A stretch of DNA of 36,271 nt from a virus, in the UHGV virus genome UHGV-0245185; one strand, given 5' to 3'. Positions within the stretch are counted from its first letter, which is position 1, and every line of letters begins with the position of its first letter. Of this stretch, positions 2,849 to 35,347 are shown in pieces. A program made the translations under genes and the position numbers. The notes below the pieces were generated by a model, which saw nothing but the letters and a program-made list of their open reading frames with translations, searched no databases and was not told the origin of the DNA.

Positions 2849-3449
2849 GGTGTCTTTTCCATCCTAATTTAGCTGCTTTTGAAACCAGTTCTTTAATTTT
2901 TCCTTTTGTCCATTCAGGACCAGGAGGTTCATGACATAACATTTGCTTAACTCCGTTATTATACCATTTTTTACCTTTATTATGTGATGAAGCTTTAAAT
3001 TTATTTGACCTTCCTTTTACATAACCTTCTGGAATATAAGGCAAAAAGGCAGATTTTCCTGTTAATGGATCATGTGAATGTATATTTCCTTTACAATTAT
3101 GAGAACCATATAATGGATGATTTTGTCCTTTATTATCTCTTCCAAATGAACCTTTTGGAGCAGCATATGACATATTAAAGAATAATGGATTTTTAACTGC
3201 ATCATGCAATCGTTGATAATATAACTCGCATTTAATAGCTTCTTCACGCGTATCAAATTCAGCTAAAATGCATGAATCAAATAAGTGAGGATTATCTGAA
3301 AGCTCTTTATTATAAATTTTCTTATACTTTTTAGATAAAACTGAACCATGATATCCAGCTAAATGCCTATCTAAAGACGTAGATCCAATATAAAAAGGAG
3401 GAAGCTTATCTCCACTATATATTGTTAAATAAGTTATATATTTTTTCAT
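2826..3449 (-). CDS. GIY-YIG family endonuclease-like protein (putative free-standing homing endonuclease, Seg-like)
   Basis: 207 aa. N-terminus TIY-x9-YIGST, then DRH, FDSCILAEF and EEAIKCE, paralleling I-TevI GIY / YVGS / FECSILEE / ERENF. Basic G/K/H-rich C-terminal half. Its 3' end overlaps the gene 47 start by 23 nt. Confidence 0.65.
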   Translation of the reverse strand: MKKYITYLTIYSGDKLPPFYIGSTSLDRHLAGYHGSVLSKKYKKIYNKELSDNPHLFDSCILAEFDTREEAIKCELYYQRLHDAVKNPLFFNMSYAAPKGSFGRDNKGQNHPLYGSHNCKGNIHSHDPLTGKSAFLPYIPEGYVKGRSNKFKASSHNKGKKWYNNGVKQMLCHEPPGPEWTKGKIKELVSKAAKLGWKRHHENTKLG

Positions 3450-3608
3450 ATATCAAGAACCGTCATTGAAATGCAAAATAAAATTATTGAAATAAATCCA
3501 TCTGGAGTGCTAAAGAACCCAATCCAACACGCTCTAGTGAATAGATAAAATGCGAGAAAAAGTATCACATATCCAAGAAATATCATTATATCAAACTCCG
3601 TATAAAGC

Positions 3609-3628
3609 TAAAGGGCCGAAGCCCTTTA
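3609..3628 (-). terminator. GC hairpin with UUCG tetraloop directly after the a-gt stop (weak terminator or RNA-stability element)
   Basis: Plus taaagggccgaagcccttta: 8-bp stem, loop CGAA (UUCG in the minus-sense RNA). The downstream U-tract is weak. Confidence 0.4.
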
Positions 3629-4828
3629 TTTTGTAATAATGTCAAACTGTTCTTTAAAGCAGAAGCTTGAATCTTGATGCTGATACAAAAATTCATAAGC
3701 TTTTTCGCGTTCACGGTCATAAAGAGCTCGGTCAGATGACAGTTCTTTAATACGTTCAAATGTTGATTCCATGTCATTTTCATCAAACCAAACGATACCG
3801 CTATCATGAGAAATTAACGGAGTATTATCAACACGGAATTTTAAATTTTCGCCAGTAGATTTCCAAAATACTGGAATTGTTCCACATGCACCAAGCTCGA
3901 GATGAGTATATTCTAAAGAACGTTGTAGATATTTTTTGTCCAACTTACTCAACTGATAACCAAATCCGGATTTACTCATGCGTTCAAGCATTTCGCTATT
4001 TACATAACGGTCGAGAATTTGCGTCGGCAAATTAGGAGCAATTTTAATTTGGTCTACTTGATGAAGACGATAATACTCATATGGAATTCCTTTTTCTTTA
4101 ATAGGAATGAACGCTGGAGAACGTTCCAGACCTTCCATAATAGTACTTAGCCCAGCAGGTTTAAGATGTTTTTCGTGAAAATCAAACATCTGATAAAAAC
4201 CTTTCCATGTAGTCGTACGACCAATCCAACGGTTGACATTCATGTTAATTTCAGAAACATCTTTCCAGTAGGTTGATCGAACCTTCGCAATATCCATAGG
4301 AGGCTGAAAGTTGTATACAGTCGGTGCTTCTTCAATATCATCAAACAGAGAAACCGTTTCTGGATACCATTCTTTCATCAAAACTTTATTAAAGTCACCA
4401 TTATCAGAATGGCTAAAAATAACATCAGCTCGACGAACAGTTTCTTCTAATCCCAAATTTCGGCGCAAAGAAAGAGAAGAATGGTCATGTTGATAAACTA
4501 CAACACGAACCGAAGGTTTAATGTTATCAATAATTTTTTTATAGTTATTAATAGTGTCTTCTTCGACTGAAGTAGCAGGAACTGAATTGATAATTAGAAT
4601 ATCACAATCATTTACCAGCTTAAGTGTTTTATCGTATTCTTTTGCCAATAAAACCGGAATTGAAAATGATTTATAATCGTGCGCGCAATTACGGGTAAAT
4701 GATTTATCTTTAGCATAAACCAAAGTTACTTCATGACCATTTTTAATAAACCAATCACGTTGCTCAAGAGAAAATTTAGTTACGCCACAACCTTCAAGAC
4801 CTCGAGCCATAAAAATGCATACTTTCAT
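3626..4828 (-). CDS. a-gt: DNA alpha-glucosyltransferase
   Basis: 400 aa, near-identical to T4 alpha-gt as recalled (MxxCIFMARGLEGCGVTKFSLEQRDWF...). Confidence 0.9.
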   Translation of the reverse strand: MKVCIFMARGLEGCGVTKFSLEQRDWFIKNGHEVTLVYAKDKSFTRNCAHDYKSFSIPVLLAKEYDKTLKLVNDCDILIINSVPATSVEEDTINNYKKIIDNIKPSVRVVVYQHDHSSLSLRRNLGLEETVRRADVIFSHSDNGDFNKVLMKEWYPETVSLFDDIEEAPTVYNFQPPMDIAKVRSTYWKDVSEINMNVNRWIGRTTTWKGFYQMFDFHEKHLKPAGLSTIMEGLERSPAFIPIKEKGIPYEYYRLHQVDQIKIAPNLPTQILDRYVNSEMLERMSKSGFGYQLSKLDKKYLQRSLEYTHLELGACGTIPVFWKSTGENLKFRVDNTPLISHDSGIVWFDENDMESTFERIKELSSDRALYDREREKAYEFLYQHQDSSFCFKEQFDIITK

Positions 4829-6888: not shown

Positions 6889-7211
6889 ACCTTAGCAATT
6901 TTCAGGTCAGCAAATTTTTTCTTGCGTTGATTTTTCATACGACGAATAGTTTTATCGGAAATTTCATGCTTTTGATAAGCTTTAGATTCTACACCAAAAG
7001 CTTTAACATCAAATTCTGACAAGATATATTGAACCAACAATTCACGGACAGTATTGCGCCCAATCTTCTGATCATTCTGTTTCATCGTCTGATGAAGCTC
7101 TTTTTCCCATTTATCCAAAATTTGAGGAGTTACAATATCGCCTTTTTCTAGCAAAGAAACTACTTTATCATATGCGTAAGAATTGATGGCGTTTTTAATT
7201 TGAATAGTCAT
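6885..7211 (-). CDS. Hypothetical basic protein (108 aa)
   Basis: ORF track; ATG start preceded by GAGGATAATGT. Confidence 0.55.
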   Translation of the reverse strand: MTIQIKNAINSYAYDKVVSLLEKGDIVTPQILDKWEKELHQTMKQNDQKIGRNTVRELLVQYILSEFDVKAFGVESKAYQKHEISDKTIRRMKNQRKKKFADLKIAKV

Positions 7212-7246
7212 ACATTATCCTCAATTGCATTAAAATTTTATTATCC

Positions 7247-7266
7247 AAAAAAGGGCCGAAGCCCTT
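7247..7266 (-). terminator. Intrinsic terminator (UUCG-tetraloop hairpin plus U-tract)
   Basis: Plus aaaa-aagggccgaagccctt; minus reads AAGGGC-TTCG-GCCCTT-TTTT. Sits immediately after the stop of ORF 7265..7465. Confidence 0.6.
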
Positions 7267-7465
7267 AGCTAAACCGTTTGGCACCCTTCCAGCCTTCGTA
7301 CATCATTGCAACTGACAATGACAAAGCTCCTTCGCATGCTGCATACTTATTATTCCAGAACCAATTTAGAAAAACTTCATCCTCAATACCATTATGTTTC
7401 ATGTTCTGGAAAAATTTGGCACGTTCTTCAGCAATTCGTTGTGATAATTTAGATTCAGGATTCAT
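7265..7465 (-). CDS. Hypothetical protein (66 aa)
   Basis: ORF track; ATG start. Confidence 0.5.
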   Translation of the reverse strand: MNPESKLSQRIAEERAKFFQNMKHNGIEDEVFLNWFWNNKYAACEGALSLSVAMMYEGWKGAKRFS

Positions 7466-7597
7466 TTAAATTTTCCAGTTACCATTTTCATCAATAAATT
7501 TAATCCAGTCATTTACTGACCACTTGGTCGTATCGCCCTTTGGAGCAACATTTAAAGTGTATAATCCTTGTTTAAAAAGCATACGTTTGATATTCAT
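7466..7597 (-). CDS. Hypothetical small protein (43 aa from the internal ATG)
   Basis: The track ORF 7466..7681 overlaps its neighbour by 77 nt. The ATG at 7597 has a strong SD (GAGGAAAAT) and follows the upstream stop at 7605. Confidence 0.4.
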   Translation of the reverse strand: MNIKRMLFKQGLYTLNVAPKGDTTKWSVNDWIKFIDENGNWKI

Positions 7598-7604
7598 ATT
7601 TTCC

Positions 7605-7898
7605 TCAGCTGTAACGATAGCACTCGTTTGATTTACGCTTAGCAACTCGTTGAGAAGTATTGTAATCAAAATCATCGTCAATGTAAACTGATTTTTTCAA
7701 CTTTCTTACTTCACCACGTAATTGGCGATTTAACTCATCTTTAACTTCTGAATCAATGCCTTTCATTCTACGCCATTTATCTGAGCGAAAAATGTTTTCA
7801 ACCATATCTTTATGACTTACACCATCAGGAGCTTTACGCTTTCCGAAATAGTCATAATCACGAACTTTCAAGTCTTTACGACGATACGTTTTACCCAT
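7605..7898 (-). CDS. Hypothetical basic protein (97 aa)
   Basis: Track ORF 7605..7943; the ATG at 7898 (MGKTYRRKD...) has SD AAGGAAAT 8 nt upstream and overlaps the stop of the upstream small ORF. Confidence 0.5.
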   Translation of the reverse strand: MGKTYRRKDLKVRDYDYFGKRKAPDGVSHKDMVENIFRSDKWRRMKGIDSEVKDELNRQLRGEVRKLKKSVYIDDDFDYNTSQRVAKRKSNECYRYS

Positions 7899-8067
7899 GG
7901 AGTTTAATTTCCTTAGCAACTGAACTAAATACAGCACGGTCACAAATCAAGCGTTTATTCCATTTAAGTAAAGTATAGTGAACCTCAAAATCATCTACTG
8001 CTGTAACAATAACGATATGTCCATTAACACGATAATACTGATCTCTTTTAATCTCTTTATCAACCAT
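7891..8067 (-). CDS. Hypothetical small protein (58 aa), not in the ORF track
   Basis: ATG at 8067 with SD GAGGAT; translation MVDKEIKRDQYYRVNGHIVIVTAVDDFEVHYTLLKWNKRLICDRAVFSSVAKEIKLHG. Stop overlaps the next start (ATGGGTAA). An early promoter lies upstream. Confidence 0.35.
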   Translation of the reverse strand: MVDKEIKRDQYYRVNGHIVIVTAVDDFEVHYTLLKWNKRLICDRAVFSSVAKEIKLHG

Positions 8068-8225: not shown

Positions 8226-8549
8226 TTAGTCTTCTATGATATCTCTATCATATCCAAGTGAAATGAGAGTTTCTTTAAAGTGTTTAATGTTCTTTTGTCT
8301 AGAATCATTAATGAAAATGACTGGATAACGAATGTTAAGAGATGTGAATCCAGCACGTTTAGCAAGAGATACAATCAGTGGACGATCATACTCAATCTTA
8401 CCATTATTTGTAAGAACTTTATAGAAAGTAAAAGGAGCATTGAGCTCCTTTAAAAGTTTTGTAACTGATTGACATCCAGGACAACGACCAACTTCATCTG
8501 GAATTCCATAGACTTCAATCTTATTCTTTAAGTTCGAGTTTTGTTCCAC
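8226..8549 (-). CDS. nrdH: Glutaredoxin/thioredoxin-fold protein (NrdH-like, CPGC motif)
   Basis: KIEVYGIPDEVGRCPGCQ... redoxin fold. No in-frame ATG near the domain start; the GTG at 8549 has AAGGAA SD 9 nt upstream. The track start at 8678 is also GTG and overlaps the upstream ORF. Confidence 0.65.
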   Translation of the reverse strand: MEQNSNLKNKIEVYGIPDEVGRCPGCQSVTKLLKELNAPFTFYKVLTNNGKIEYDRPLIVSLAKRAGFTSLNIRYPVIFINDSRQKNIKHFKETLISLGYDRDIIED

Positions 8550-31945: not shown

Positions 31946-32476
<531 letters not shown>

Positions 32477-32932
32477 TTAAAAGAGGTTGTTCATTATTCT
32501 GTAAAGTGAAGGACCCATCACATATTGCCACTGAGTACGAGGAATAAGAGCAAAAGCATCCATCTCTGGAATCATAACGCCATCTTTATTTTCAAAATAA
32601 GACTCGCAATGGCAATTTCTAAACATCTCATGCTCTACTGGAATCGTATAATAAAATAACTGTAAGTCTTTATTACTAGAATATTTAAATACACCTAAGT
32701 CTTCTAGAAGGTCTGGATTATAATTGCTAAAGCCAGTCTCTTCTAAGCATTCTCTTCGTGCTGCATCTAGTGCGCTTAAATCAGAACTTTCTACACGCCC
32801 CTTTGGAATATCCCAGCGATGTGCCATCATTCCATGTTTACGAGAACCAGTAACTCGTCCCATAAATAAATCTTTATCTTCTGTCATAAAGATAATACCA
32901 GCTGATAGTGTTTTCATTTTAATTTCCTGCAT
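32477..32932 (-). CDS. nudE: Nudix hydrolase NudE (e.1)
   Basis: 151 aa with Nudix box GRVESSDLSALDAARRECLEETG. The second in-frame ATG at 32917 overlaps the e.2 stop (ATGA). Confidence 0.85.
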   Translation of the reverse strand: MQEIKMKTLSAGIIFMTEDKDLFMGRVTGSRKHGMMAHRWDIPKGRVESSDLSALDAARRECLEETGFSNYNPDLLEDLGVFKYSSNKDLQLFYYTIPVEHEMFRNCHCESYFENKDGVMIPEMDAFALIPRTQWQYVMGPSLYRIMNNLF

Positions 32933-33402
32933 TCAGTGATAAAATTATTTAAATTTTGAGCATATTTCTTTTCATCAAAAATCTTTTGTTGTCTGCGCAT
33001 CCGCCATGGCATTTCAATGAACATGTACCATATTCCTGATAATATTGATGCTGTAAAAATATTAACAAGTATGGTTAAAAGAATCCAATCTCCTATTCTG
33101 TCCATTGGATTTTTTATAAAAAAGTAAAATACGAATGATGACACAGGAAGACTAATGATATACCACAGAATCATAATCTTATCTGTGAACCATTCAGCAT
33201 TCGTTAACTTAGCACGACCATTATGAATACACACGAATTTATCATCTGTTACAGTAGATGGCTTAACTGCTTGATATCCCATTCTAAACTCCCTAATTAA
33301 TCGTTTCTTTGTATCTTCAGAACAGCCGCTCCAGTCAACTCTATCAACTGAAATGCCATCGTCCCCATCATCTAAATCATACCAGCGAGTTTTTAAAATC
33401 AT
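32914..33402 (-). CDS. Membrane protein (162 aa; e.2 position)
   Basis: ORF track; transmembrane segments; C-terminal ...FITECRKLK. Confidence 0.55.
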   Translation of the reverse strand: MILKTRWYDLDDGDDGISVDRVDWSGCSEDTKKRLIREFRMGYQAVKPSTVTDDKFVCIHNGRAKLTNAEWFTDKIMILWYIISLPVSSFVFYFFIKNPMDRIGDWILLTILVNIFTASILSGIWYMFIEMPWRMRRQQKIFDEKKYAQNLNNFITECRKLK

Positions 33403-33761
33403 TTAATTTTCCTACAATCACTCACAAACTCTTCCATTGATTCTTTTTCAATATAAGACATATAGCTATTATATTCCTTTAATTGTATTTTGTAATCCTT
33501 TTTTCTTTGCCAATTTATTTTAAAATTATCATAATGAAAATATAACATGGTACCAAAGAATGAAAATAATGAAATCGCTATAGTATAATGAAGTTCACTC
33601 CAAACCTCTGTTATAATTGCTGAACCATCGACGTTTAAAATAAAACAGTCAATCATTAATCCAATAAAACTACCCGCAAGAGCTGCAAATACTGATACAG
33701 CAAGAATTAACATTGCCTCGAGAAACGAATATTTGACTTTATTTAGTTTTGGCTTTTGCAT
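33399..33761 (-). CDS. Membrane protein (120 aa; e.3 position)
   Basis: ORF track; transmembrane segments; C-terminal ...FVSDCRKIK. Confidence 0.55.
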   Translation of the reverse strand: MQKPKLNKVKYSFLEAMLILAVSVFAALAGSFIGLMIDCFILNVDGSAIITEVWSELHYTIAISLFSFFGTMLYFHYDNFKINWQRKKDYKIQLKEYNSYMSYIEKESMEEFVSDCRKIK

Positions 33762-34135
33762 CGTGATTCCTTAACAAATTTCATAATTTCATCAAATTCA
33801 TACATATCTAGCTTAAGCTGGTGTTCCTTTTTGATCTTTTTACACTGAGCTTTCCATTCACGTACACGTTTACGATAATGTCTTCCTTGATACCAATATC
33901 CTACCCAATTTACAGGTACTAATAAAAATGGAACTACTAATGGAAGAATTAATACTAACAGAAATATTATGCCAGATTCAATATCAGTCATAACGTCTAT
34001 AACCATTCCAGCAATCAGCAGAATCACAAATGATACAGCTGTCACAGGACCTATTAATACATCAGTAGAAATTAGCTGACGCTTTGGTTCATACTTCACA
34101 GGTTTACTTGGAAGGTATAGTGATGGCTTTGACAT
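33743..34135 (-). CDS. Membrane protein (130 aa; e.4 position)
   Basis: The track start at 34156 is TTG; the ATG at 34135 has SD AAGGAA. C-terminal ...FVKESRCKSQN. Confidence 0.5.
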   Translation of the reverse strand: MSKPSLYLPSKPVKYEPKRQLISTDVLIGPVTAVSFVILLIAGMVIDVMTDIESGIIFLLVLILPLVVPFLLVPVNWVGYWYQGRHYRKRVREWKAQCKKIKKEHQLKLDMYEFDEIMKFVKESRCKSQN

Positions 34136-34712
34136 ATTCTCTACATTCCTTAACAAATTTTTCTAATAATAAATCGCTTTCAAAATTGGGATTTTCTACG
34201 AATTTATCAAAAAGATCATCAACAATAGTTAAGATATTCTTTTTACTAAGAATACGCTTATTTTCATATTTTGTTTCAGAGTCAACTATAAGAGTAAAGA
34301 AATATTTCTTTCCCTGAAATTTTACCGTAGTATCAATATAAAATAAATTTGATTTTTGTAAATTACGTTTAAACCATGCATCACTTAAACTATAAACGCC
34401 AAGATAATCATAATCGTCGTTTAAATAACAAACCGTCCATTCAGGGGAAATGAAATCAGTAAATTCAACATCAAAATCACACGTCAATGAATGAATTGAT
34501 TCAATACTGTTAATGAGTATTCCAGGACGTATTAAAGACTTTTTACCTCTAGAAAATCTTCCGGAAAGGCTTTCATCGGTTTCATATGAAGACCCCCAAT
34601 AATAATTACGTCCTTCTGCCATACGTTTAAGAGCATTTAGTAATTGGTCTGGAACATCAACCTGTCTTTGAAACTCTTCAAACATTGAATTGAAATCACT
34701 TTGCATTTTCAT
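34104..34712 (-). CDS. Hypothetical protein (202 aa; e.5 position)
   Basis: ORF track; ATG start; C-terminal ...FVKECREYVKAITIPSK. Confidence 0.55.
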   Translation of the reverse strand: MKMQSDFNSMFEEFQRQVDVPDQLLNALKRMAEGRNYYWGSSYETDESLSGRFSRGKKSLIRPGILINSIESIHSLTCDFDVEFTDFISPEWTVCYLNDDYDYLGVYSLSDAWFKRNLQKSNLFYIDTTVKFQGKKYFFTLIVDSETKYENKRILSKKNILTIVDDLFDKFVENPNFESDLLLEKFVKECREYVKAITIPSK

Positions 34713-34730
34713 TCCTATTTACTCCAAGTA

Positions 34731-34750
34731 TAAGGGGCCGAAGCCCCTTA
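34731..34750 (-). promoter_or_regulatory. UUCG-tetraloop GC hairpin after the e.6-position gene (no U-tract)
   Basis: Plus taaggggccgaagcccctta: 8-bp stem, loop CGAA; the minus strand continues ATACTTGGAG, so this is an RNA-stability or processing element rather than a classic terminator. Confidence 0.35.
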
Positions 34751-34753
34751 TCA

Positions 34754-35347
34754 TTATTTCAGAGAATTAATGTATTCCTGAACATCGGCAGAGGTAGTTT
34801 CAACACCAGAAATATTACCGTTAAAGGTTTCAACTCGAGCAAGGGTATCTTCAATATCAACCTTAGTCAGTGCTGCAATTTCAACTACATCATCGGCAGT
34901 ACTAATTCCAAGGGCATTTGCTGCACGAGTTTCACGGATATATTCCAATTTAACCGCAAGTTCTTGACAAGCATCATCTAACTCAACTACTTTCTTGGCG
35001 ATTTCAATTCGCATTTCAGCATAACCGTCAGCCTTAGTAGTCAACTGCTCAGCTGTTCGACGATATAGTAAACCGAGTTTAGCATGCATTGTTACATCTT
35101 GGCCTTCGGAAAGAAGTTTACGAATTTCACGCTCTTTTGATTCGGCCTGTCGATTCTTTTCGATAACAAGTTCACGAATACGTTTTTCTTCGTTAATAGA
35201 TTTAACAGAAGCAGTTTTTAGATCTTTAATTTTATCAAGTAGTTTTGCTGCTGCAGCAGTATACTGTTCTTCGACAGATAGATTTTTAGCCATAGCAGAA
35301 CCAAGTTTAGTGCGAATAAACTCAACAATTTTCTTCAGTGTGTTCAT
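34754..35347 (-). CDS. Coiled-coil protein (197 aa; e.6 position), possibly PspA/IM30-like
   Basis: ORF track; ATG start; long charged helical repeats. The PspA likeness is a weak by-eye impression. Confidence 0.5.

What the first reader, a model, noticed from the sequence alone, without database searches (positions are those of the whole stretch)
32914..34165. Four consecutive gene junctions (e.5/e.4/e.3/e.2/e.1) reuse a coupling cassette that also imposes a shared C-terminal motif
The ORFs at e.2-e.5 end in ...F[VI]x[ED][CS]R[CK]... (FITECRKLK, FVSDCRKIK, FVKESRCKSQN, FVKECREYVK). At DNA level the ends are near-identical: AAATTTGTTAAGGAAT occurs as an exact 16-mer at both the e.5/e.4 and e.4/e.3 junctions, and TG(C/T)AGGAAA(A)TTAAA(A)TGA at both e.3/e.2 and e.2/e.1. 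Each cassette supplies the SD (AAGGAA or AGGAAA) and the overlapping ATG of the next gene. The protein motif is therefore at least partly a by-product of translational coupling, and the repeats are potential recombination points for cassette shuffling.
Basis: seen in the sequence. Interest (0 to 1): 0.5.

Follow-up and report, generated by a model that had tools for sequence, protein, structure and literature searches.

The report
Shared protein tail at phage gene junctions
Four neighbouring T4-type phage genes end in the same short, genuinely conserved protein tail that also carries the next gene's ribosome-binding site, and the resulting DNA repeats are where whole genes (e.2, e.4) are present or absent in related phages.

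Summary
In this Tequatrovirus window, e.5, e.4, e.3 and e.2 (minus strand) each carry F-[VI]-x-[ED]-[CS]-R near the C-terminus. Four of the five matches in the six-frame translation are these tails (0.25 expected). At DNA level there are two repeat pairs, not one cassette used four times.

The "by-product of translational coupling" reading is mostly wrong:
- About 35 coupled-like junctions in the window lack the motif.
- The Shine-Dalgarno (SD) sequence lies on motif positions 3-4 (K-E) in one pair and on 6-7 (R-K) in the other.
- In Dhakavirus and Gaprivervirus the e.5 tail is FIAECREYAK (GCT for x, CGT/CGC for Arg). It contains no SD and is nearly free of overlap, yet it is the best-conserved part of e.5.

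e.4 and e.3 are full-length paralogues. e.2 resembles e.3 only over its last 39 residues.

The recombination idea is supported:
- At least 42 Tequatrovirus records (T2, PP01 and others) lack exactly e.2, with a hybrid junction.
- Dhakavirus lacks exactly e.4 between the equivalent junctions.

Coupling itself, the tail's function and the direction of these gene gains or losses remain untested. Moderately interesting; a coding-junction analogue of the known promoter-terminator shuffling cassettes (PeSL).

The parts
34104..34712 (-). e.5 CDS (202 aa, soluble, function unknown). The tail motif FVKECR occupies residues 186-191.
   Evidence: PHROG 2607. Homologues occur only in Tequatrovirus and Mosigvirus, with very divergent versions in Gaprivervirus and Dhakavirus.
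34145..34160 (-). Type-1 junction repeat, copy 1: AAATTTGTTAAGGAAT (K-F-V-K-E codons of the e.5 tail).
   Evidence: (D7)
34140..34157 (-). e.5 tail motif codons TTT GTT AAG GAA TGT AGA (F V K E C R).
33743..34135 (-). e.4 CDS (130 aa). Predicted to have two transmembrane helices followed by a long C-terminal helix. Its start overlaps the e.5 tail by 32 nt.
   Evidence: Pfam PF26873 Phage_T4_Y06O from precomputed hits. AlphaFold2 predicts helices 24-49 and 54-128, mean pLDDT 72.6.
33766..33781 (-). Type-1 junction repeat, copy 2: AAATTTGTTAAGGAAT in the e.4 tail. Its AAGGAA lies 5 nt upstream of the e.3 ATG.
33761..33778 (-). e.4 tail motif codons TTT GTT AAG GAA TCA CGA (F V K E S R). The invariant Cys follows two residues later (TGC), and its TG forms part of the e.3 ATG.
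33399..33761 (-). e.3 CDS (120 aa, two transmembrane helices). Full-length paralogue of e.4.
   Evidence: BLASTP E = 4e-4. hhalign probability 89%, E = 2e-6, residues 1-125 against 1-117. Alignment A5. A Gaprivervirus-type e.4 also matches the e.3 PHROG.
33399..33416 (-). Type-2 junction cassette, copy 1: TGTAGGAAAATTAAATGA. It encodes C-R-K-I-K-stop, contains the SD AGGAA, and has an ATGA overlap with e.2.
33368..33428 (-). Extended type-2 repeat, copy 1. It runs from the Phe codon of the e.3 tail to about 35 nt into e.2.
   Evidence: p about 0.002; D5; in-register p about 0.003
32914..33402 (-). e.2 CDS (162 aa: N-terminal domain, two transmembrane helices, tail). Found only in Tequatrovirus and absent from T2-type phages.
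   Evidence: absence shown
32914..32931 (-). Type-2 junction cassette, copy 2: TGCAGGAAATTAAAATGA. It encodes C-R-K-L-K-stop, contains the SD, and has an ATGA overlap with nudE. The core TGCAGGAAA (32923-32931) is where the crossover lies in e.2-less genomes.
32884..32943 (-). Extended type-2 repeat, copy 2. It runs from the Phe codon of the e.2 tail to about 35 nt into nudE.
   Evidence: (D5)
32477..32917 (-). nudE (e.1), a Nudix hydrolase. It is the last cistron of the overlapping block and is followed by a 36-nt spacer containing TATAAATA and a strong SD before gene e.
   Evidence: Pfam NUDIX E = 1e-13
34025..34048 (-). Microhomology in e.4 transmembrane helix 1 (CCTGTGACAGCTGTATCATTTGTG). 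This is the left breakpoint of the natural e.4::e.2 hybrid gene in the UFV05/06/11 phages.
   Evidence: P0098
33130..33147 (-). Microhomology in e.2 transmembrane helix 1 (CCTGTGTCATCATTCGTA). This is the right breakpoint of the same hybrid.

Best explanation
e.5, e.4, e.3, e.2 and nudE form a block of overlapping, probably translationally coupled cistrons.

The shared tail (F-[VI]-x-[ED], then C/S/I/V, then R/K) is an old C-terminal element conserved at the peptide level. In e.4 it is predicted to sit at the end of a long helix that follows the second transmembrane segment. The same tail is found on e.3 and e.2, and also on the soluble protein e.5. The ribosome-binding site of the next cistron has been written into this tail or next to it. 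It lies on the K-E codons in e.4 in all genera and in e.3 outside Tequatrovirus. It lies on the R-K codons in Tequatrovirus e.3 and e.2.

The DNA repeats are two pairs of duplicated junctions left by duplication or insertion of a cistron:
- e.4 and e.3 are tandem paralogues.
- e.2 is flanked by a diverged repeat of about 60 nt, made of the tail, the SD, the ATG and the first ~35 nt of the next gene.

The repeats stay similar because three constraints act on the same bases: the peptide, the ribosome-binding site and the overlapping reading frames.

The two copies of a pair are in the same frame, and each carries an RBS and a start codon. Ectopic recombination or replication slippage between them therefore removes or adds exactly one cistron and leaves a functional hybrid junction. 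This accounts for e.2 in T2-like phages and e.4 in Dhakavirus.

Shown here: the anatomy, the conservation pattern, the e.4/e.3 paralogy and the indel boundaries.
Inferred: coupling, the duplicative origin of the repeats, the recombination mechanism and its direction.
For: Motif specificity:
- Four of the five six-frame matches are these tails, against 0.25 expected.
- None of about 31 other coupled-like junctions carries the motif.

The SD does not sit at a fixed place in the motif, and is sometimes absent:
- Searches give the positions in this window.
- Mosigvirus e.5 is FIMECR; Mosigvirus e.3 is FIKECRK* and is followed by an unrelated gene.
- SP18 and WG01 e.5 are FIAECREYAK, encoded TTT ATT GCT GAA TGT CGT/CGC. 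Their SD (AAAGGGG or AAAGAGG) lies downstream of the motif, and in WG01 the overlap is only 8 nt.
- BLASTP between T4-type e.5 and SP18-type e.5 detects only the tail. A weak colinear similarity in the protein body is seen only with profiles.

Conservation across four genera.

Paralogy:
- e.4 versus e.3.
- The Gaprivervirus-type e.3 matches the e.3 profile at 96.9% probability, and the alignment ends at ...ETFIK, the same motif position.
- e.2 versus e.3: only the last 39 residues, probability 38%.

The repeats extend into the downstream genes in register. Between e.2 and nudE the shared bases are read in different frames, so this is DNA-level ancestry rather than convergence on a peptide.

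The junctions are diversity minima. Nucleotide diversity (pi) is 0.005-0.016 in the 30-nt bins at the e.4/e.3, e.3/e.2 and e.2/e.1 junctions, against about 0.2 in the hypervariable transmembrane-coding regions. The e.5/e.4 junction shows no such dip (14 genomes).

e.2 indel:
- The BLAST pieces overlap by 22 nt, and the junction reads ...GAGTGATTGCAGGAAATTAAAATGAAAACA.
- At least 42 records show a single-piece junction match; 448 of 514 records have e.2.
- The L009 junction equals the T4 flanks joined inside TGCAGGAAA. T2 carries the same junction on another haplotype.

e.4 indel:
- Dhakavirus WG01 has e.5-like followed directly by e.3-like.
- Its junction matches the SP18 e5/e4 junction on the left and the SP18 e4/e3 junction on the right.
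- The two SP18 junctions are themselves in-register repeats.

The junction SDs are moderate to weak (-4.2 to -6.1 kcal/mol, against -11.5 for gene e), which fits reinitiation-type starts.
Against: - Translational coupling is not demonstrated.
- There is no significant RNA structure at the junctions (z-scores -1.15 to +1.19), so an unfolding-type coupling mechanism has no support.
- Reference T4 carries a frameshifted e.2 of 102 aa. Its tail is untranslated, and 161 nt separate the stop from nudE.
- Some phages have e.3 truncated to 97 aa. Tail and coupling are therefore not essential for viability.
- The function of the tail is unknown.
- The e.4 model has only moderate confidence (pLDDT 61 over the last ten residues). 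The e.5 model failed (pLDDT 39).
- How a soluble protein (e.5) came to carry the same tail is unexplained.
- e.2 versus e.4 gives no profile similarity.
- The direction of each event (gain or loss) is unresolved.
- No e.4-less Tequatrovirus was found among the best hits to a synthetic junction.
- Allelic recombination is pervasive but not visibly concentrated at the junctions.
- The exact identity of the 16-mer could equally reflect gene conversion.
- In SP18 an in-frame upstream ATG exists, so freedom from overlap is certain only for Dhakavirus.
Confidence: 0.7

Rival explanations
1. The peptide motif is mainly a side effect of writing an SD and a start codon for the next gene into the last codons of each gene. 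On this view the junctions converged on one 'coupling cassette'.
For: - The K-E codons (AAGGAA or AAGGAG) do serve as the SD at good spacing in e.4 tails of three genera and in e.3 tails of Mosigvirus, Gaprivervirus and Dhakavirus.
- The R-K codons (AGGAAA) are the SD in Tequatrovirus e.3 and e.2.
- AGGAAATTAAA-ATG is a generic T4-type ribosome-binding site that also occurs at an unrelated junction in the window, near 7898.
- The junctions are nucleotide-diversity minima.
Against: - F, V/I, the acidic residue and C/R are never part of the SD.
- The SD occupies different motif positions in the two cassette types.
- About 31 other coupled-like junctions lack the motif.
- The e.5 motif persists without any SD in it in Mosigvirus, Gaprivervirus and Dhakavirus. 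In the latter two Arg is encoded by CGT/CGC rather than AGA.
- The AAGGAA in the Tequatrovirus e.5 tail lies 10 nt from the e.4 ATG.
Confidence: 0.08
2. Concerted evolution of a cis-acting nucleic-acid element. The junctions are homogenised by gene conversion because the RNA or DNA sequence itself is functional beyond the SD. Possible roles are a reinitiation enhancer, an RNase or regulator site, or a recombination signal. On this view the peptide simply follows from that sequence.
For: - Within each lineage the two junctions flanking e.4 resemble each other, but through different sequences. Tequatrovirus has the exact 16-mer. SP18 has GAAT-T--TAA-G-GGTTC--AATG-GAACG.
- In Mosigvirus the e.5 tail DNA is closest to the e.3 tail DNA.
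- Diversity minima occur at the e.4/e.3, e.3/e.2 and e.2/e.1 junctions.
Against: - No Rfam match.
- No significant RNA structure.
- No promoter-like site at the junctions beyond chance.
- Cross-pair DNA similarity is not significant, although the peptide motif is shared.
- Conserved residues are encoded by different codons.
Confidence: 0.12
3. Pure shared ancestry without present function. The tails are simply the slowest-decaying remnant of tandem duplications, frozen by the overlapping reading frames. The peptide itself is not under selection.
For: - e.4 and e.3 are paralogues.
- In Tequatrovirus and Mosigvirus 19-32 nt of the tails are read in two frames.
- T4 tolerates loss of the e.2 tail.
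Against: - The motif itself lies mostly upstream of the overlaps.
- In Dhakavirus the e.5 motif is outside any overlap and outside the SD, yet it is the most conserved part of a protein whose remainder has diverged beyond BLASTP detection.
- e.5 is not a paralogue of the membrane proteins.
Confidence: 0.1

Closest known systems
PeSL (promoter-early stem-loop) mobile regulatory cassettes of T4-type phages (Arbiol et al. 2010, PMC2839356; Comeau et al. 2014, PMC4122927)
   Same: - Repeated expression signals flank small genes of unknown function in T4-type phages.
- Recombination between two flanking copies deletes the gene and leaves one chimeric copy. The reverse event would insert the gene.
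- Some crossovers map next to the SD or the ATG.
   Different: - PeSLs are intergenic elements of about 100 bp with a sigma-70 promoter and a terminator hairpin, so each gene is isolated transcriptionally.
- The repeats here lie inside coding sequence. They have no promoter-like site and no significant hairpin. Only 9-16 nt are identical.
- They carry a peptide tail plus an RBS, and they keep the gene inside a translational chain.
Translational coupling of overlapping cistrons (ATGA / TGATG, termination-reinitiation; Huber et al. 2019, PMC6728339; review PMC12548453)
   Same: - The genes are co-directional, with overlaps of -4 nt at two junctions and 19 and 32 nt at the other two.
- A moderate SD lies inside the upstream gene.
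   Different: - Coupling is not known to impose a shared multi-residue peptide on successive genes.
- Here the peptide is conserved independently of the SD.
- Coupling is untested for these genes.
Deletions between short direct repeats in T4 (classical rII deletion end-points; cited from my own knowledge of work by Pribnow et al. 1981 and Singer & Westlye 1988, not checked here)
   Same: The e.2-less junction retains one hybrid copy of a short direct repeat. Identity at the crossover is about 9-11 nt (TGCAGGAAA).
   Different: - Here the repeats are functional gene junctions.
- The product is a precise, in-frame removal of one cistron that keeps the RBS and start intact.
- It is established in nature in roughly 8-13% of Tequatrovirus records.
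Pfam PF26873 (Phage_T4_Y06O, the e.4 family) and PF26896 (the e.2 family); PHROGs 2604, 2330, 2203, 2607 and 8788
   Same: The window proteins belong to these families.
   Different: The databases treat e.4, e.3, e.2 and e.5 as four unrelated families of unknown function. Neither the e.4/e.3 paralogy nor the shared tail is recorded in the family names or descriptions seen here.

Membership tests
Translationally coupled overlapping cistrons (termination-reinitiation) | Co-directional genes with a short overlap or gap between the stop and the next start | tested here: met
   The overlaps are 32, 19, 4 and 4 nt. Two of them are ATGA.
Translationally coupled overlapping cistrons (termination-reinitiation) | An SD-like element at workable spacing upstream of the downstream start, inside the upstream gene | tested here: met
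   - UAAGGAA at 5 nt before the e.3 start.
- AGGAA at 6 nt before the e.2 and nudE starts.
- For e.4 the spacing is 10 nt, which is poor.
- Hybridisation energies are -4.2 to -6.1 kcal/mol.
Translationally coupled overlapping cistrons (termination-reinitiation) | Downstream translation depends on translation of the upstream gene | not testable with these tools
   - This needs reporter fusions or ribosome profiling.
- Natural premature stops in e.2 (reference T4) and in e.3 exist, but the expression of the downstream genes in those phages is unknown.
PeSL mobile regulatory cassette | Sigma-70-type early promoter within the repeat | tested here: not met
   Sixteen promoter-like sites were found in 3.2 kb, against 15.2 expected. 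None lies at the four junctions.
PeSL mobile regulatory cassette | Stable stem-loop (terminator or attenuator) within the repeat | tested here: not met
   - Folding z-scores are -1.15 to +1.19 for 90-nt junction windows.
- The only terminator-like hairpin lies between e.6 and e.5.
PeSL mobile regulatory cassette | Two copies flank a variable gene, and related genomes carry a single chimeric copy instead | tested here: met
   - e.2.
- e.4 in Dhakavirus compared with Gaprivervirus.
Tandem paralogous gene family (e.4 / e.3 / e.2) | Colinear full-length sequence similarity between the members | tested here: met
   e.4 versus e.3:
- BLASTP E = 4e-4.
- hhalign probability 89%, E = 2e-6, end to end.
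- A PHROG cross-hit.
Tandem paralogous gene family (e.4 / e.3 / e.2) | e.2 and e.5 belong to the same family | tested here: inconclusive
   - e.2 versus e.3: only the last 39 residues, probability 38%.
- e.2 versus e.4: nothing.
- e.2 has the same two-transmembrane-helix plus tail layout, and a natural e.4::e.2 hybrid is joined in the first transmembrane helix.
- e.5 shares only the tail.
Known structured RNA families (Rfam 15) | Match to any covariance model | tested here: not met
   No match with E up to 1 in window 32300-34900, both strands.

The most novel reading that the evidence does not exclude
The tail F-[VI]-x-E-C-R is an autonomous functional module that travels together with the next gene's ribosome-binding site as a 'junction cassette'. 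Any cistron recombined in between two cassettes would then be translated by coupling and also tagged with the same C-terminal peptide. The peptide could serve as a common docking helix that assembles e.5, e.4, e.3 and e.2 into one membrane complex. Alternatively it could act as a nascent peptide on the terminating ribosome to favour reinitiation.
Probability: 0.12. Interest if true: 0.75.

Novelty: new variant of a known kind. Interest (0 to 1): 0.4.

Why it matters
- It gives the first shared feature for four adjacent T4 genes of unknown function (e.2 to e.5). The feature is a tail conserved across four Tevenvirinae genera, and in e.5 it is better conserved than the rest of the protein. This suggests a common partner or a common fate and gives a specific target for mutagenesis.
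- It shows that e.4 and e.3 are paralogues, although the databases seen here keep them as separate families.
- Whole-cistron gain or loss in T4-type phages can use very short in-frame repeats at coding junctions. This extends the promoter-terminator (PeSL) model of modular shuffling to genes inside translationally linked blocks.
- It is also a caution. A C-terminal motif that overlaps an SD is not necessarily caused by the SD.

Tried and rejected
- RNA structure at the junctions: not different from shuffled sequences.
- Rfam: no match.
- Sigma-70 promoter scan: chance level, with nothing at the junctions. The 'promoter' features annotated at two junctions in phage Lutter look like automated calls.
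- Pfam and NCBIfam: the local Pfam copy and NCBIfam gave no family for e.2 to e.5. The 'sulfurtransferase' labels in GenBank are unsupported.
- An e.4-less Tequatrovirus: a synthetic e.5::e.3 junction query gave only two-piece hits among the 12 best. The check was not exhaustive.
- Excess allelic recombination at the junctions: 43 of 267 adjacent informative site pairs are incompatible across the region. Distance-matrix correlations across junctions (0.07-0.62) are no lower than within genes (0.09-0.41). There is therefore no hotspot signal with 14 genomes.
- IMG/VR: only 6 loci.
- AlphaFold2 of e.5 without an alignment: pLDDT 39, unusable, so no fold search was run.
- A 12-nt match between e.5 (DKFV) and e.2 (DKFV) (D12): judged to be chance.
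- Literature: two text searches for the e.x gene names failed or returned noise. The Miller 2003 T4 genome review is not held.
- T4_ev151 and T4_ev240 as possible de novo laboratory deletions: rejected. T4_ev151 was compared with both parents and is only about 95% identical to either T4 or T2 in this region, so it is not T4-derived here. T4_ev240 was seen only as an e.2-less junction hit.
Full report
**What is there**

The window comes from a Tequatrovirus (T4-like phage). 514 phage records match the region; 507 of them at 90% identity or more, the best at 97.4%. On the minus strand lie, in order: e.6, a hairpin terminator, e.5 (34104-34712), e.4 (33743-34135), e.3 (33399-33761), e.2 (32914-33402), nudE/e.1 (32477-32917), and then gene e behind a late-promoter-like TATAAATA and a strong SD. 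The five genes from e.5 to nudE overlap by 32, 19, 4 and 4 nt.

**Checking the observation**

- All four tails contain F-[VI]-x-[ED]-[CS]-R. In the six-frame translation of the 36-kb window this pattern occurs five times, against 0.25 expected. Four matches are these tails and one lies inside nrdH.
- In T4 bases 1-72,000 the variant F[VI].[ED](xx)?C[RK] matches only these four tails.
- The 16-mer AAATTTGTTAAGGAAT is exact at both the e.5/e.4 and e.4/e.3 junctions. None of 100 shuffles gave two copies.
- The 18-mers TGYAGGAAA(A)TTAAA(A)TGA are present at e.3/e.2 and e.2/e.1.

- e.5 continues for 11 residues past the motif.
- At DNA level there are two pairs of repeats. Cross-pair alignments are not significant.
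- Within each pair the similarity continues, in register, into the 5' end of the downstream gene. For e.2 versus nudE p is about 0.003, for e.4 versus e.3 about 0.007, and control pairs are not significant.
- Between e.2 and nudE the shared bases (GCTGGTAT...ATGA) are read in different frames. This is DNA-level ancestry, not convergence on a peptide.

**Is the motif a by-product of the SD and coupling?**

Five observations argue against it.

1. A rough gene call finds about 35 coupled-like junctions in the window. Only these four carry the motif.
2. The SD lies on motif positions 3-4 (AAG GAA, K-E) in the first pair and on positions 6-7 (AGG AAA, R-K) in the second. F, V/I, the acidic residue and Cys are never part of the SD.
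3. The AAGGAA in the e.5 tail lies 10 nt from the e.4 ATG. In the other three junctions the spacing is 5-6 nt.
4. Related genera keep the peptide while the nucleotides change.
   - Mosigvirus has e.5 FIMECREYVK (ATGGAA in place of AAGGAA), e.4 FVKEIRCKSLNS, and e.3 FIKECRK* followed by an unrelated gene.
   - An exhaustive profile search of 1.84 billion representative proteins found only nine relatives. One of them led to Gaprivervirus and Dhakavirus.
   - There e.5 ends in ...RFIAECREYAK..., encoded TTT ATT GCT GAA TGT CGT/CGC. The motif contains no SD, and the SD (AAAGGGG or AAAGAGG) lies 9 nt further downstream. In Dhakavirus WG01 the overlap with the next gene is only 8 nt.
   - This tail is nevertheless the only part that BLASTP can align between T4-type and SP18-type e.5. 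Homology of the protein bodies is visible only weakly, with profiles.
5. Conserved residues use several codons: TTT/TTC, GTT/GTG, ATT/ATC, TGT/TGC, and AGA/AGG/CGT/CGC.

The peptide is therefore under its own selection, and the SD has been written into it or next to it. The K-E codons do double as the SD for e.3 in all three genera that have e.4.

**What the genes are**

- None has a known function.
- e.4 and e.3 are full-length paralogues. BLASTP gives E = 4e-4 over 111 residues, including the N-terminal M-x-K-P-x-L. hhalign gives 89% probability, E = 2e-6, end to end. The joint alignment is colinear. A Gaprivervirus-type e.4 also hits the e.3 PHROG. The Gaprivervirus-type e.3 matches the e.3 profile at 96.9%, and the alignment ends exactly at ...ETFIK.
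- AlphaFold2 on the joint alignment predicts, for e.4, two transmembrane helices with the second continuing as one long helix to residue 128. This places the motif at the end of that helix. Mean pLDDT is 72.6, and 61 over the last ten residues.
- e.2 has the same layout behind an extra N-terminal domain. Its sequence resembles e.3 only over the last 39 residues (probability 38%) and does not resemble e.4.
- e.5 is soluble and shares only the tail. How it acquired the tail is unexplained. A plausible but untested route is a past deletion that fused the e.5 body to the tail of a lost paralogue, in the way e.3 acquires the end of the e.2 tail in T2.

**Recombination at the junctions**

- T2, SV76, PP01 and others lack exactly e.2. 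e.3 runs ...GAG TGA TTG CAG GAA ATT AAA ATG AAA ACA... straight into nudE, and its tail becomes ...CRKLK, which is the e.2-type ending. The two BLAST pieces overlap by 22 nt.
- At least 42 records give a single-piece match to this junction. 448 of 514 records contain e.2.
- One e.2-less junction (L009) equals the T4 flanks joined inside TGCAGGAAA. T2 carries the same junction on a different haplotype. This means either recurrent events or later recombination around a single event.
- Across genera, Dhakavirus WG01 has e.5-like followed directly by e.3-like, with no e.4. Its junction matches the SP18 e.5/e.4 junction on the left (49 nt) and the SP18 e.4/e.3 junction on the right (p about 0.004). 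The two SP18 junctions are in-register repeats of each other, with a sequence different from the Tequatrovirus 16-mer.
- Both variable cistrons are therefore bounded by the junction repeats. The direction of each event (gain or loss) is not resolved.
- e.2 and its derived R-K-type cassette occur only in Tequatrovirus. Its junction duplication therefore post-dates the split from Mosigvirus.
- Not every rearrangement uses the cassettes. UFV05/06/11 carry an e.4::e.2 hybrid gene joined at a microhomology in the first transmembrane helix.
- Ordinary allelic recombination is frequent everywhere and is not visibly concentrated at the junctions.
- The e.4/e.3, e.3/e.2 and e.2/e.1 junctions are diversity minima (pi 0.005-0.016 in 30-nt bins) set between hypervariable transmembrane-coding segments (pi about 0.2). 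The e.5/e.4 junction is not.

**How it most likely works**

- The block is read as a chain. A ribosome finishing one cistron meets a moderate SD (-4 to -6 kcal/mol) and a start codon within or a few nucleotides from its stop. This matches the termination-reinitiation type of coupling described for ATGA pairs (PMC6728339; PMC12548453).
- This step is inferred, not shown. There is no sequestering RNA structure.
- Natural frameshifts that stop e.2 (reference T4) or e.3 early show that coupling and the tail are dispensable for viability.
- The junction repeats are in the same frame, and each carries an RBS and a start. Recombination or slippage between them therefore excises or adds one cistron cleanly.

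**Comparison with what is known**

- The nearest concept is PeSL-mediated modular shuffling in T4-type phages (PMC2839356).
- The flanking-repeat logic and the chimeric product are the same. The defining promoter and stem-loop are absent, the repeats are coding, and identity at the crossover is only about 9-16 nt.
- That makes it closer to the classical short-direct-repeat deletions of T4 (cited from my own knowledge, not checked here).
- I file it as a new variant of a known kind, of moderate interest.

Noticed in passing
L003 (Shigella phage vB_SsoM_113) 940-965; corresponds to window about 34160-34166: An A-run one base shorter (GAAAATTTG instead of GAAAAATTTG) just before the 16-mer puts the e.5 body into the e.4 frame. 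The record annotates a 324-aa e.5-e.4 fusion. This may be a homopolymer sequencing error or a real fusion.
   Followed up: partly
L022 (T4 NC_000866.4) 7035-7960; L004 (T4T) 1960-2447: In reference T4 and in T4T, e.2 is frameshifted in an A-run (FFIK|NPMD) and is annotated as 102 aa (e.2a, with a separate e.2b). The e.2 tail is therefore not translated, and 161 nt separate the stop from nudE. This is a natural 'premature stop' upstream of nudE.
   Followed up: partly
P0186-P0189 (e.3 clusters); e.g. Escherichia phage LH2: Several e.3 variants of 97 aa end in ...INWQRKKGLQNTIKRI. They arise from a frameshift in the A6 run of the basic stretch after the second transmembrane helix, and they lose the C-terminal tail.
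   Followed up: no
L012 (IMG/VR Mosigvirus-like contig) 2875-2995: e.3 has an internal deletion of about 240 nt and reads out of frame. Both of its junctions are kept, namely the overlap with the e.4 tail and the tail plus SD for the next gene.
   Followed up: partly
L002 (UFV06) 963-1283; window 34025-34048 and 33130-33147: A natural hybrid gene joins e.4 residues 1-32 to e.2 residues 88-162. The join is at the microhomology CCTGTG(A/T)CA...TCATT in the first transmembrane helix, and about 900 bp including e.3 is deleted. It is seen in UFV05, UFV06 and UFV11.
   Followed up: partly
L005 (JK42) 2857-3651; L027 (SP18) 3526-4107; L028 (WG01) 3180-3761: Downstream of e.3 in Mosigvirus, Gaprivervirus and Dhakavirus lie two or three tandem small ORFs (65-101 aa). 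All end in G-x-W-[VI]-[SA]-S-S-x-x-C*. This is a second tandem family with a conserved C-terminus.
   Followed up: no
window 33940-34060 (e.4) and 33560-33730 (e.3): The segments encoding transmembrane helix 1, the loop and transmembrane helix 2 of e.4 and e.3 are hypervariable among 14 Tequatroviruses (pi about 0.1-0.2, with indels of 4-5 codons). The N-termini and cytoplasmic C-terminal halves are nearly invariant.
   Followed up: partly
window 34730-34751 and 32441-32476: A GC-rich hairpin terminator (GGGGCTTCGGCCCC) separates e.6 from e.5. A T4 late-promoter-like TATAAATA and a strong SD (UAGGAGGU, -11.5 kcal/mol) precede gene e. The overlapping block e.5 to nudE is thus delimited on both sides.
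   Followed up: partly
GenBank annotations of e.3 and e.4 homologues: Many records label e.3 or e.4 'sulfurtransferase', and some 'DNA primase' or 'host specificity protein'. Pfam and NCBIfam give no support for any of these names.
   Followed up: yes
window 8298-8315 (minus strand); T4 41894: The only other match to the motif regex in the window is FINDSR inside nrdH, 23 residues from its stop. It is treated as chance.
   Followed up: yes
L014 (phage Lutter) 1510-1537 and 1970-1997: The depositor annotated 'promoter' features exactly at the e.3/e.2 and e.2/nudE junctions. My sigma-70 scan of the window finds no promoter-like site at the corresponding junctions. MotA-type middle promoters were not tested properly.
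   Followed up: partly
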